Positions 51,001 to 54,000 of a DNA stretch of 64,000 bases are shown here, piece after piece. Source of the stretch: Rhina ancylostomus. Lineage: Eukaryota. The number at the start of each line of letters is the position of its first letter. The first letter of the stretch is position 1. Location: positions 70,853,744 through 70,917,743 of the forward strand of contig JARFYF010000002.1 of NCBI GenBank assembly GCA_030265395.1. Reading direction: 5' to 3'. The position numbers were made by a program.

Positions 51001-54000
51001 AATATATTCTAATGATGGGTCTTCGACCTGGAACTGTAATTCTGTTTCTCTCTCCTGACCTGCTGAGACTTCCCAACATTTTTTGCTTTTATTTCAGATT
51101 GCCAGCATCTGCAGTTTTTTTTAAGAATATATAATTTAAATCTAATACGGTATATTTGCATTCTGTACAAAACGTATTTTTCTGCTGAAATATATCACTT
51201 TGATAAAATTGGTAGTAATTCTAGCCAGTTTTAACTGTGCAAGGAATGTGTTTGACAGCCCAACATCCTGTTTACTGGTGCAGTTTCAAGAGGGTATGGG
51301 CTTGACATCCCTTTGTTCCTGTGCTAAGATATCTGCTTAATTTAGAAATTAAACAAGTTGCTACAAAATTGAGTTAAATTAAAAAAAGGTCAGTTGTGAC
51401 TGCTAAATGCAAAGCTCTGTGGGTGTGAAGATTGCCAGGTTTATAAGGTGAAAATTTCCATTGATCAGTAGTTACAGCACTTTGTAAACAACACATCTGT
51501 TCCTTATTTCTCTGCCTATTATGTCTGTCTGCTGCATATGATTATTAGATTCTGTCTGTGTTCCTTTTTGTCATTGTTACTCTTAATACAATAGGGTTAC
51601 AAAAGGACAATAAAGAAATCTTTGGTCCATTTACATGAGCAATTGACTCATATTTAATATTGTTGGATGAGAGCTTAGACTTCTTTGTTATTGCATAGTA
51701 GTATAGTGATCACATTTTATCTTCTTTCTCTCTTTTAGGTAGTTGGAATATTTGCGGGTTTTGGCCTTTTGCTGTTAGTAGCATCACCTTTCCTCCTGCT
51801 TGCCACACCGTTTGTCCTCTGCTGCAAGTGTAAATGTAACAAAGGAGATGATGATCCTTTACCCACATAAGCATGATGCCCCGATAAAGAAAACAGGAGG
51901 ATGGAATTTTATGAACATTCTTTCCAATATAACTATCATCTTAATTCGTCTGATTTTTGTCCCATGATATTTCCCAGAGTCAACGTTTGTTTCCCAGCTT
52001 GCACAAGTCCAGAGTCTCTGAGAGTGCAGTGAATTTTAAAAAGAAGTGTGGATAAGAAGTAATTGGGTTGTCGAGGAGACAGTTTATTCCAAGAGAATGC
52101 ACAGGAACTTGGTGTACTGCACAAACCTCTGGAATATGGGAAGCAAACTTAGAAAAGTACTTGCTTAAATGGTTCTCAAAGAAGCGATATACTTGATGGT
52201 GTACAGCTGTACATTTAAATATAAGATTTATAGGTTATATGAAGAAGGAAAATAAGTAATTTTGGAATAAACAGAAAATGGCTGAGATGCTTCAGGATAG
52301 AGAGAGGGAGAAAGCCTTCTCTTACAGTTGCAATGAATAGTGATAGAATTTGCAATGAATAGAGAACCTATCAGAATTAGAGATTTTTTGATGTAAAAAA
52401 AAAGCCCCACACCCTTTTCTATAAAGAGACAGAAGTCAATTTTACTGTATAAAATCTTTTCAAAAAGCATTTTTGACTATTTTAATTGGGGATCTAAAGG
52501 TTTCATCATTTCTAAGTCATGATTTTTTTTCATGCCATTTATCTAGACCTATCTTCAAAATAATATCTCCATGTGTTTATTTTCTGAATACGTAAAGGTN
52601 NNNNNNNNNNNNNNTTCTTAATAGATATCTGCAATAATGTTTCTGTAACTTTGACTGCAGATGGGAAAATGATTACTGACTAGGGGACTGTGAACATGCA
52701 AACTCATTCAAAACTTATCACATTCTCATTGTCAAAATGATGTTTATTGAAATTCATTCCTCAAAAGTTGCTGTGTTTTACGCTGAGCACAAATGATCTG
52801 AATTTTCACTTATTTTGACAAACAAAACATACTTATTGACTCTGAAAGGATGAAAGGAAAATGACTTGCCCTTTAAAGACCATAAATTGCTCTTTGGCTT
52901 TTATGAAATCCATTTCGTGATCTATTTCAAACACATCAGGATCACAGTCTATTAATTTTAAACCATTGTAAATCCTGTTCTTGAAATTACTGCTTGGTCT
53001 GTATAGTTGAAAGATGAATGCCTAGTGATCAGAAACATGAATTAAGGAGGTGGGTAACAAAGTAGATAAGAAATTCAGTGGATGGGTTTGAATGATCCCG
53101 GACTCTGAAACAAAAGTGGATAACAAGAAGAGAGTCACCAAAAAAAAACACACTGAGGAGTGAAATTGAGTCCTGCTAGTGAGCTCTGTATTCTAGCCTG
53201 TTTGGATGTTTATCTCTAGCTGTGTATTATTGTGTTTTTAATTTCTAACATAATTGCAAGAGCTCTTATTCTAACTTCACAAAATTATTTCTACATTAAT
53301 GCACAATTGTTAATGGCTAAAGTAACCAGGAACAGAAAACAAGCTTTTTTAGCAAGTTTATAGATTTTCAGAGTCTGAAACTGAACACAGTTAATTTTAG
53401 TGGAACTGCAAATTAAACCAAAGGTGCACAATTTCAAGGAGCATAAACTAGGAAGCAGCTTGAACCAGGTTGAACTGTAGTTAGAAAGCAACATGAATAT
53501 TGGAATATCTTGGCTACTTTGGAGAGAGTCAGGGTGGGAATTAGGGCTGTGGGGATAGGAGAATCTCTAGTTGGGTTGTGGAGACAAAAGACTGCAAATG
53601 CTGGGATCCGGAACAACATACGGAAAGCTGAAGGAACTCAGTGGGTCAGGCAGCATCTGTGGAGGGAAATGGACAGTCTGTCTCTCACCCCCCCCCGCCC
53701 TCCATTCTGTCTTTCAGTCCAGATTAAGGGCCTTGACCCAAAATGTTGACTGTCCATTTCCCGCCACAGAGGCTGCCTAACCCACTGTTCCTCCAGCTTT
53801 TTGTGTGTTGCTCTAGTTGGGTTGTCCTTGCACTTCTGTTGTTATTTTTAACAATGGCATCATGAAATGTTTCATGGTTTTAACTTCTATTTCTTCATGT
53901 CAAAACAATTACCACATATATAATTACTAAATAAGAAGCTAATGCACCATTTACTTGCTGTTGACAATTTACAGGTAGCTGTAGGATAGTGGGATAACAT

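What the first reader, a model, noticed from the sequence alone, without database searches (positions are those of the whole stretch)
53565..53825. Self-complementary ~230-bp element with a perfect 15-bp TSD in the probable RNF144A 3'UTR
Seen: ctctagttgggttgt flanks the unit on both sides. Its two ~67-nt arms are reverse complements, each a Penelope 3' end, joined back-to-back around a degenerate hammerhead. Inference: the palindrome inserted in one retrotransposition event, either as a 5'-inverted PLE copy or as a non-autonomous hairpin element mobilised by PLE enzymes. It looks like a MITE but has a long, TPRT-style TSD. If the UTR extends to ~56.9 kb, the mRNA carries a long stem-loop that could be an ADAR, Staufen or Dicer substrate. 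The sense-strand ribozyme core is mutated at both boxes, as expected if a cleaving copy in an mRNA were harmful.
Basis: partly seen in the sequence, partly recalled or inferred. Interest (0 to 1): 0.7.

Follow-up and report, generated by a model that had tools for sequence, protein, structure and literature searches.

The report
Head-to-head Penelope-type retrotransposon insertion
A 231-bp palindromic repeat downstream of an RNF144A-like gene is one short insertion of a Penelope-type retrotransposon, built in the inverted "head-to-head with a tail" form already known for this class, so it is ordinary but unusually clean.

Summary
An exact 15-nt direct repeat (53565-53579 and 53811-53825) flanks a 231-bp unit. 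Two ~65-nt arms of that unit are 86-89% complementary and fold into a long hairpin.

The unit belongs to a repeat family with 12 loci in the window. The family carries a minimal hammerhead motif.

The two arms are not copies of each other. The left arm (99 nt) reaches the family's full 3' end, including a 34-nt "tail". The right arm (132 nt) stops at the tail-less end and alone carries the dead hammerhead.

An inverted 5'-truncated copy, an optional 30-40-bp tail on one side and a TSD around the whole are the published typical Penelope-like element (PLE) structure. Four loci in the window have inverted structure, each with a different junction. That argues for independent events and against a hairpin family.

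My best mechanism is inferred, not shown. Both nicked target strands primed reverse transcription at the two known alternative start sites.

One detail is unusual. The left arm begins exactly at the first base after the predicted ribozyme cleavage site.

Whether the element lies in the 3'UTR cannot be told. Purifying selection on the ribozyme core is not supported. This is a new member of a known kind, of modest interest.

The parts
53565..53579 (.). Left copy of the 15-bp target site duplication, CTCTAGTTGGGTTGT.
   Evidence: Exact repeat.
53580..53678 (-). Left arm, 99 nt, ribozyme-sense on the - strand. It runs from the first base 3' of the predicted hammerhead cleavage site to the family's full 3' end.
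   Evidence: Aligns to positions 95-195 of the reference copy R, which is the - strand of 7726-7920.
53580..53613 (-). The 'tail': 34 nt at the outer end of the left arm with no counterpart in the right arm.
   Evidence: It corresponds to the last 36 nt of R. Its length matches the 30-40-bp optional PLE tail described.
53679..53810 (+). Right arm, 132 nt, ribozyme-sense on the + strand. It is a 5'-truncated copy that ends at the tail-less 3' end of the family.
   Evidence: Aligns to roughly positions 20-159 of R, with an internal deletion. The upstream 25 nt or so align poorly, so the inner boundary is good to a few nt only.
53715..53752 (+). Relic of a minimal (type I, no helix III) hammerhead. 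Helix I is cagtc/gactg. Box 1 is CAGATTA (53720-53726) in place of CTGANGA. Box 2 is AAAA (53740-53743) in place of GAAA. The predicted cleavage site lies between 53747 and 53748.
   Evidence: Read from the sequence and from alignment to other copies, using the published motif description. No Rfam hammerhead model matches it.
53614..53678 (.). 5' half of the hairpin stem. It pairs with 53748-53810.
53748..53810 (.). 3' half of the hairpin stem.
53811..53825 (.). Right copy of the TSD. Its first 6 nt (CTCTAG) match 5 of 6 bases of the family sequence that would follow the tail-less end (CTCCAG in R).
51739..51870 (+). Last coding exon of the RNF144A-like gene. It ends ...CCKCKCNKGDDDPLPT, with stop codon TAA at 51868-51870. 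This is context, not part of the element.
   Evidence: Gene identity rests on exon-wise searches.

Best explanation
The 231-bp unit is a single, severely 5'-truncated insertion of a hammerhead-bearing Penelope-type retroelement, or of a non-autonomous relative. It has the head-to-head form typical of this class.

Proposed mechanism (inferred):
1. The element's endonuclease nicked both strands of the target 15 bp apart.
2. Each free 3' end primed reverse transcription on element RNA.
3. The top-strand end started at the distal start site, so this arm (the left arm) carries the 34-nt tail. It copied 99 nt and ran off the 5' end of an RNA that ended at the hammerhead cleavage site.
4. The bottom-strand end started at the proximal, tail-less start site, possibly helped by 5 of 6 base pairs between the target end and the RNA. 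It copied about 132 nt (the right arm).
5. The two cDNAs were joined in the middle, for example by a template jump of the first onto the 3' end of the second. Repair then left a 15-bp duplication.

Shown: the anatomy, the TSD, family membership, and that the two arms cannot be copies of each other.
Inferred: every step of the mechanism.

Since insertion the copy has decayed by roughly 5% per arm and its ribozyme core is dead. If transcribed it would form a ~63-bp imperfect hairpin. No function is indicated.
For: 1. One event. A perfect 15-bp TSD encloses both arms. The arms are 56/63 identical to each other, against 53/63 or fewer to any of the 12 other aligned pieces.

2. Family. The core 18-mer has 11 matches at up to 3 mismatches, against 0.05 expected. 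BLAST finds 12 loci. One copy keeps an intact minimal-hammerhead core (30471-30498, - strand), 1 match against 0.09 expected.

3. Each arm holds family sequence the other lacks: the 34-nt tail on the left, and 69 nt with the hammerhead on the right. Neither arm can have been templated by the other.

4. The outer ends sit at the two family 3' ends, 34-36 nt apart.
- Locus 1899-2105 shows the same pattern: one arm with the tail, the other ending at the same tail-less position.
- Locus ~59362-59476 shows it approximately.
- That makes 3 of the 4 inverted loci.

5. Literature.
- An inverted 5'-truncated copy next to the direct one, with a 30-40-bp tail often at only one end, is a stated PLE hallmark (Craig 2021, PMC8557442, passages).
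- The 'typical Penelope structure' includes an inverted pLTR, a TSD around the whole insert, and a 31-bp tail on one of the inverted pLTRs (Arkhipova 2013, PMC3846280, passages).
- Purified PLE protein nicks and extends both strands. It starts reverse transcription at two internal sites, and the spacing between them is the tail (Frangieh 2024, PMC11167929, main text).

6. A second inverted locus (30367-30613) is enclosed by a 13/15 match of the same 15-bp length; 0 of 2000 random pairs reached that.

7. The left arm's inner end (53678) corresponds to the first nucleotide after the predicted cleavage site.
Against: - No RT/GIY-YIG ORF is joined to any copy of this repeat in the window. The PLE assignment rests on the motif and the architecture. 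Of 190 ORFs of 66 aa or more, 75 were scanned (5 more exon or shorter ORF stretches), and none gave a PLE-type RT or EN domain at E <= 0.001. One GIY-YIG-like remnant (48222-48602, - strand) is sub-threshold (E = 0.13) and not contiguous with a copy.
- Rfam hammerhead models find nothing in the window. The ribozyme reading is by motif only.
[quoted passage not shown] My microhomology and run-off details therefore go beyond, and partly against, what was seen in vitro.
- The exact coincidence with the cleavage site is one case. The seven single copies aligned extend past that site or have fuzzy 5' ends.
- Locus 30367-30613 has arms that are symmetric about its centre, with the inverted arm ending 3 nt past the cleavage site. 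That fits self-priming better than double priming.
- The 7 mismatches between the arms alongside 0 in the TSD are compatible (expected ~1.7 differences, P(0) ~0.2) but not a strong fit.
Confidence: 0.7

Rival explanations
1. L1-style twin priming on one RNA. The second target strand annealed by microhomology at an arbitrary internal site of the same RNA and primed the inverted piece.
For: 5 of 6 bases of the TSD's first hexamer match the family sequence just beyond the tail-less end. The chance of 5 or more out of 6 at a fixed place is about 0.005 (my arithmetic). A variable inner junction is also expected under this model.
Against: The two arms overlap by 65 nt of the same template region. 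Classic twin priming on a single RNA does not give that. The same tail-less end recurs in locus 1899-2105 and roughly in ~59362-59476, which points to a preferred start site rather than an arbitrary one. There is no poly(A).
Confidence: 0.13
2. Self-priming (snap-back). One cDNA folded back and copied itself, as proposed for PLE inverted repeats that have palindromes at the junction.
For: Arkhipova 2013 infers self-priming from palindromes at inverted junctions (passages). The junction here reads ..ACAGtCTGT.. (53673-53681), a small 4+4 palindrome. Locus 30367-30613 is symmetric about its centre.
Against: A snap-back copy can only contain what its template contains. Here the left arm has a 34-nt tail absent from the right arm, and the right arm has 69 nt absent from the left. 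By my reading, the 3' end of the would-be primer is not complementary to the site where copying would have to start.
Confidence: 0.07
3. A non-autonomous hairpin element (MITE-like or hairpin SINE) that transposes as a unit with this structure.
For: The shape is palindromic and a TSD is present.
Against: No second copy with this junction was found in the window. The 4 inverted loci all differ. The termini are not inverted repeats, because the left 34 nt are unpaired. A 15-bp TSD is long for a cut-and-paste element (established knowledge, recalled).
Confidence: 0.04
4. Two independent insertions, or a rearrangement, that happen to lie head to head.
For: The family is dense here, with 12 loci in 64 kb.
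Against: A single perfect TSD spans both arms and there is no internal duplication. The arms are each other's nearest relatives.
Confidence: 0.03
5. A selected RNA hairpin, such as a miRNA precursor or a regulatory 3'UTR stem-loop.
For: The fold is strong. There are sub-threshold look-alike matches to miRNA hairpin models, for example mir-641 at 33.3 bits against a gathering score of 100.
Against: All Rfam matches are far below gathering scores and simply follow the inverted repeat. The mismatches show no bias towards keeping pairs on either strand: by my reading, 3 of 7 are wobble-compatible on the + strand and 2 of 7 on the - strand. No expression data are available.
Confidence: 0.03

Closest known systems
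Canonical endonuclease-containing Penelope-like element insertions (Penelope/Poseidon, Neptune, Nematis, Naiad), in the head-to-head form: inverted pLTR plus direct copy plus optional tail
   Same: It has an inverted 5'-truncated copy abutting the direct copy. A 34-nt extension is present on one arm only. A TSD encloses the whole. A minimal hammerhead lies in the terminal region (searches compared).
   Different: It is extremely short, at 99 + 132 nt. It has no ORF and no direct pLTR pair. Its 15-bp TSD is longer than the 8-10 bp quoted for the rotifer copies. The link of this repeat family to an RT/EN-coding master copy is not shown in the window.
PAc (Poseidon of Anolis carolinensis) in vitro reaction (Frangieh et al. 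2024)
   Same: Both target strands are used as primers. There are two alternative internal RT start sites whose spacing equals the tail. The hammerhead lies tens of nt upstream of the start sites. Here the cleavage site lies 65 and 99-101 nt from the two ends.
   Different: In vitro, initiation showed no homology to the target, and HHR cleavage was dispensable and left no read ends. Here there is 5/6 target-RNA microhomology and an arm that begins at the cleavage site. In the text I read and searched, the paper does not itself connect two-strand extension with inverted genomic copies.
LINE-1 5' inversion by twin priming (recalled; no paper read here)
   Same: A 5' inverted piece and a 3' direct piece lie within one TSD, and both target strands act as primers.
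   Different: There is no poly(A). The arms overlap by 65 nt rather than being adjacent parts of the template. The inverted arm ends at a recurrent family position.
Animal non-LTR retrozymes (tandem type I hammerhead repeats), proposed non-autonomous PLE derivatives
   Same: It is a hammerhead-bearing, ORF-less sequence related to PLE terminal regions. Retrozyme copies that overlap exons tend to lie in 3'UTRs (bioRxiv 10.64898/2026.07.22.740005, abstract and passages).
   Different: It is not tandem. It holds a single dead ribozyme and has an inverted rather than a head-to-tail structure.

Membership tests
Penelope-like element (EN+) insertion | A minimal hammerhead motif in the terminal repeat region. 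| tested here: met
   The family alignment shows helix I, CTGANGA, helix II and GAAA in register. One copy has an intact core (1 hit against 0.09 expected). In this element the motif is a relic with changes in both boxes. Caveat: Rfam hammerhead models give no hit. Cleavage was not tested.
Penelope-like element (EN+) insertion | An optional 30-40-bp tail present at one end only. | tested here: met
   A 34-nt extension is present on the left arm only. It is 36 nt in reference copy R. By eye, 8 aligned pieces carry it and 5 lack it.
Penelope-like element (EN+) insertion | An inverted 5'-truncated copy adjacent to the direct copy, with the whole flanked by one TSD. | tested here: met
   Published definition.
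Penelope-like element (EN+) insertion | The repeat belongs to an element that encodes a telomerase-like RT and a GIY-YIG endonuclease. | tested here: inconclusive
   There is no ORF in the element. 75 of the 190 ORFs of 66 aa or more were scanned, with no RT or EN domain at E <= 0.001. A GIY-YIG-like remnant at 48222-48602 (- strand) has Pfam E = 0.13, and its nearest Atlas clusters are eukaryotic GIY-YIG proteins at 0.94. It is not contiguous with a family copy.
Penelope-like element (EN+) insertion | A partial tandem (pLTR-ORF-pLTR) arrangement. | tested here: not met
   No tandem pair of family copies was seen in the window. This is expected for truncated copies and does not bear on the mechanism.
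MITE / cut-and-paste DNA transposon | Terminal inverted repeats at both ends and a short TSD of fixed length. | tested here: not met
   The left terminus has 34 unpaired nt. The TSD is 15 bp.
LINE-1-type twin-priming inversion | A 3' poly(A), and inverted and direct parts that are adjacent, non-overlapping stretches of the template. | tested here: not met
   There is no poly(A). The arms overlap by 65 nt.
Rfam miRNA precursor families (mir-641, MIR533, mir-326, mir-4654) | A score at or above the family's gathering threshold. | tested here: not met
   Scores of 33.3, 29.6, 21.1 and 20.0 bits against thresholds of 100, 80, 66 and 87.
Rfam hammerhead families | A covariance-model match. | tested here: not met
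   No hammerhead hit at E <= 10 in 53450-53950 or in the whole window. These models expect a helix III, which minimal PLE hammerheads lack (passage).
3'UTR of the RNF144A-like mRNA | Transcript coverage continuous from the stop codon through 53565-53825. | not testable with these tools
   The stop codon is at 51868-51870. Poly(A) hexamers lie at 52266 and 53412, before the element, and there are 14 more up to 60 kb. No RNA data are available.

The most novel reading that the evidence does not exclude
The element may be a natural footprint of a symmetric, two-strand target-primed reaction by a dimeric PLE ribonucleoprotein. Each target strand would prime at one of the two alternative RT start sites. 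One template would be an RNA already cut by the minimal hammerhead, because that arm starts at the first base after the cleavage site. This would be genomic evidence that the PLE ribozyme defines template 5' ends in vivo, which the in vitro work did not see. It would also mean that head-to-head PLE copies arise from double priming rather than self-priming.
Probability: 0.22. Interest if true: 0.55.

Novelty: new member of a known kind. Interest (0 to 1): 0.3.

Why it matters
As an annotation, this is one more decayed PLE fragment near a gene.

Its value is as a very small and clean example: perfect TSD, both ends mappable, and a junction readable to the base. It lets three ideas about the poorly understood PLE integration cycle be stated as countable predictions:
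- the outer ends of inverted copies fall at two sites one tail apart;
- the tail is on one arm only;
- inner ends are enriched at the hammerhead cleavage site.

A genome-wide count in the source assembly could confirm or kill these in an afternoon.

If the region is transcribed, it also adds a ~63-bp imperfect duplex to the RNA. That is of the same general kind as inverted-repeat dsRNA in other 3'UTRs (recalled). Nothing here shows that it matters to the gene.

Tried and rejected
**Rfam**
- At gathering thresholds over the whole window there were 0 matches.
- In E-value mode over 53450-53950 there were 7 weak matches, none a hammerhead. The four best are miRNA hairpin look-alikes tracing the inverted repeat.
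- In E-value mode over the whole window there were 3 weak, unrelated matches.

**Search for a coding PLE partner in the window**
- Pfam on 75 of the 190 ORFs of 66 aa or more gave only ALKBH8_N (47656-47940, + strand) and a zinc knuckle (63705-63998, + strand).
- A permissive rescan of 5 ORFs gave GIY-YIG at E = 0.13 and RVT_1 at E = 0.19.
- BLAST of the long reference copy and its upstream 1.5 kb linked no copy to an ORF.

**TSDs of other copies**
- Only 30367-30613 is convincing, at 13/15.
- 1899-2105 and 51008-51122 reach 10/15, a level that 246 of 2000 random pairs also reach.
- ~59362-59476 shows nothing.

**Do other copies start at the cleavage site?**
- The seven single copies aligned either run past it or have fuzzy ends, so there is no support beyond this element.
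- The boundary in 1899-2105 is ambiguous within 8 nt.

**Considered and dropped**
- Snap-back copying: the arms hold mutually exclusive sequence.
- MITE.
- Two independent insertions.
- Selection against an active ribozyme.

- Empty-site and genome-wide junction tests. 
- The host species was not determined.
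Full report
**1. The observation**

The 15-mer CTCTAGTTGGGTTGT is present exactly twice, at 53565-53579 and 53811-53825. It brackets a 231-bp unit, 53580-53810.
- In the whole 64-kb window only three exact direct repeats of 15 nt or more lie 50-400 nt apart. The other two are a 58-mer in an intron and a 31-mer around an assembly gap.
- Five of 100 Markov-simulated windows held any such pair.
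- Placed at the ends of the repeat unit within +/-8 nt, none of 2000 random segment pairs reached 15/15.

Inside the unit, 53614-53678 pairs with 53748-53810: 56 matches, 7 mismatches and one 2-nt gap. The ungapped core is 40 nt at 93%.

Either strand folds into a long hairpin. The + strand gives -115 kcal/mol with z = -9.6. The - strand gives -118.9 kcal/mol with z = -8.8. In both, 0 of 200 shuffles did as well.

**2. What the unit is made of**

BLAST of the unit and of a long reference copy against the window finds 12 loci of one repeat family. The reference copy, R, is the - strand of 7726-7920. The family's core 18-mer has 11 matches at up to 3 mismatches, against 0.05 expected.

Aligned copies share, in register:
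- a short helix (cagtc...gactg);
- a CTGANGA box;
- a G+C-rich hairpin;
- a GAAA box followed by a two-base palindrome and TH.

This is the layout of the minimal, helix-III-less type I hammerhead described for Penelope-like elements (Cervera and de la Pena 2014, PMC4209133, whole text up to the start of Methods read).

One copy keeps both boxes intact (30471-30498, - strand; 1 match to a core pattern against 0.09 expected). Rfam's hammerhead models do not match any copy. The ribozyme assignment is therefore by motif, and cleavage is untested.

In R coordinates the predicted cleavage site is after position 94. The family has two alternative 3' ends, at 159 and at 195, that is 36 nt apart.

**3. 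Anatomy of the element**

The left arm (53580-53678; ribozyme-sense on the - strand) equals R95-R195. It starts at the first base after the predicted cleavage site and reaches the distal 3' end. It is 99 nt long.

The right arm (53679-53810; ribozyme-sense on the + strand) equals about R20-R159. It carries the hammerhead relic (53715-53752) and stops at the proximal 3' end.
- The relic's boxes read CAGATTA and AAAA.
- By standard hammerhead numbering (recalled; the numbering scheme is cited), positions 4, 8 and 12 are changed.

Each arm therefore holds family sequence the other lacks. The left arm has a 34-nt extension (53580-53613). The right arm has 69 nt.

Over the 63 shared columns the arms are 89% identical to each other, and at most 84% identical to any of the 12 other aligned pieces.
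- Compared against R, the differences split about evenly. Four substitutions and the 2-nt deletion are derived in the right arm. Three substitutions are derived in the left arm (my reading).
- This looks like decay of two copies made at the same time from the same or very similar template.
- At that divergence a 15-bp TSD pair would be expected to differ at ~1.7 sites. Zero differences has a probability of ~0.2, so the perfect TSD is compatible.

The first six bases of the TSD (CTCTAG) match 5 of 6 bases of what follows the proximal end in the family (CTCCAG in R).

**4. Other inverted copies**

Four of the 12 loci are inverted: 1899-2105, 30367-30613, this one, and ~59362-59476. Their junctions and arm lengths all differ.
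- In 1899-2105, one arm reaches the distal end and the other stops at the same proximal position as here.
- In ~59362-59476 the pattern is the same within about 10 nt.
- 30367-30613 is different. Its arms are symmetric about the centre, and the short inverted arm ends 3 nt past the cleavage site. It is enclosed by TGAGATAAGTTTCAG / TGAAATAAATTTCAG, a 13/15 match of the same 15-bp length. None of 2000 random pairs reached that.
- The other two inverted loci have no convincing TSD (10/15 and 8/15).

Four different junctions argue for independent events rather than one hairpin family. This is a sample of four from 64 kb.

**5. Comparison with what is known**

The structure is the published one.
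- Craig et al. 2021 (PMC8557442, passages): PLE insertions are highly 5'-truncated. [quoted passage not shown]
- Arkhipova et al. 2013 (PMC3846280, passages): the 'typical Penelope structure' has an adjacent inverted pLTR completing an insert flanked by a TSD (9, 10 or 8 bp in their examples). A 31-bp tail is optionally present on one of the inverted pLTRs. They propose self-priming because of palindromes at the inverted junction.
- Frangieh et al. 2024 (PMC11167929, main text read): purified Anolis Poseidon protein nicks and extends both target strands. It starts reverse transcription at two adjacent internal RNA sites, with no difference between strands, and the tail is the stretch between the two sites.

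In the text I read and searched, Frangieh et al. do not link two-strand extension to inverted genomic copies. A five-term search found only that paper and an unrelated one.

**6. Most likely mechanism (inferred)**

- Staggered nicks 15 bp apart leave two 3' ends.
- The top-strand end primes at the distal start site and makes the left arm.
- The bottom-strand end primes at the proximal site and makes the right arm.
- The cDNAs are joined in the middle, and repair gives the TSD.

The orientation of both arms relative to the TSD is what this geometry predicts. On each strand, the base after the TSD copy is the complement of a family 3' end.

Snap-back copying is disfavoured because neither arm could have templated the other. 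Classic single-RNA twin priming is disfavoured by the 65-nt overlap and by the recurrence of the proximal end, although the 5/6 microhomology would fit it.

Two details go beyond the in vitro work and partly against it:
- the microhomology at the proximal start;
- the start of the left arm exactly at the predicted cleavage site, which suggests run-off on hammerhead-cut RNA.

Frangieh et al. found no target homology, no need for cleavage, and no read ends at the cleavage site. The seven single copies aligned give no further case. I treat this as one suggestive coincidence.

**7. Gene context**

Exons of an RBR-type E3 ligase lie on the + strand.
- The RING1 exon (27006-27143) has the PDB entries for RNF144A, 6l99 and 1wim, as its best hits.
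- The IBR exon lies within 36760-37077, with Pfam IBR at E = 6.9e-11.
- The RING2 exon lies within 38931-39224.
- A further exon lies near 49640-49720.
- The last coding exon ends at the TAA at 51868-51870.

The exons were searched one at a time. The joined (spliced) protein was not built or searched.

The element lies 1.7 kb downstream of the stop codon. Poly(A) hexamers occur at 52266 and 53412 before it, and 14 more follow up to 60 kb. Whether it is in the 3'UTR cannot be told without transcript data.

The hammerhead relic is on the coding strand, but its decay needs no selection.
- Nine of the ten hammerhead-bearing copies I read lack one or both boxes.
- Three of its changed positions (G12 and the two Cs at 15.2 and 17) lie in CpG dinucleotides of the family sequence, judging from the CG-bearing copies 30367-30520 and R (my reading).
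- Single minimal hammerheads do not cleave in vitro.

**8. Host**

I do not take the contig for human.
- It carries a dozen copies of a minimal-hammerhead repeat.
- The papers read state that such families and PLEs are absent from mammals.

The species was not determined. My impression that this repeat is typical of cartilaginous fishes is recall only.

**9. Verdict**

This is a real feature, correctly seen. It is one short head-to-head PLE-type insertion, a new member of a known kind. Interest is modest at 0.3. The point worth following is the testable prediction about start sites, tail and cleavage site in inverted copies.

Noticed in passing
window 30352-30628: A second inverted copy of the same family (30367-30613) is enclosed by a 15-bp duplication with two transitions (13/15; 0 of 2000 random pairs reach this). 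Its arms are symmetric about the centre near 30530. The short inverted arm ends 3 nt past the predicted cleavage site. Its - strand keeps the only intact minimal-hammerhead core in the window (30471-30498).
   Followed up: partly
window 1899-2105 and ~59362-59476: Two more inverted copies with different junctions. In 1899-2105 the tail-less arm ends at the same family position as in the finding, and the inner end of the tail-bearing arm lies within 8 nt of the cleavage site (ambiguous). Neither has a convincing TSD.
   Followed up: partly
window 48222-48890 (- strand): ORF remnants that look like the C-terminal GIY-YIG endonuclease region of a Penelope-like element. Pfam GIY-YIG gives E = 0.13, sub-threshold. 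The nearest Atlas clusters are eukaryotic GIY-YIG proteins at 0.94. The remnant is cut off near 48310 by other repeat sequence and is not contiguous with any copy of the hammerhead repeat.
   Followed up: partly
window 39245-39302 and 39316-39373: An exact 58-nt direct repeat with a spacing of 71 nt, just downstream of the RING2 exon. It looks like a recent small tandem duplication in the intron.
   Followed up: no
window 41927-41957 and 42058-42088: An exact 31-nt repeat on both sides of the 100-N run at 41958-42057. It looks like an assembly-gap overlap rather than biology.
   Followed up: no
window 43720-43778 (+) and 45340-45391 (-): The same ~60-nt sequence occurs on opposite strands about 1.6 kb apart, reading towards each other. 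Each copy runs into or lies near N runs, and the - strand copy continues into a C/T-rich PLE-type terminal region with a dead hammerhead (~44999-45058). This may be a large inverted PLE structure broken by gaps.
   Followed up: no
window 47445-47940 (+) and 63705-63998 (+): Other retroelement debris. One ORF has a weak RVT_1 tail (E = 0.19) and is followed by an ALKBH8_N-like match (E = 1.6e-9). An ORF open at the window's end has a CCHC zinc knuckle (E = 1.4e-4).
   Followed up: no
window 53561-53565: On the bottom strand, the inferred nick that freed the primer for the right arm lies immediately 5' of ATT (...CTAGAG^ATTCTCC). Frangieh 2024 reports a 5'-ATT-3' preference for the Anolis enzyme. 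The top-strand nick and the nicks of 30367-30613 show no ATT, so this may be chance.
   Followed up: no
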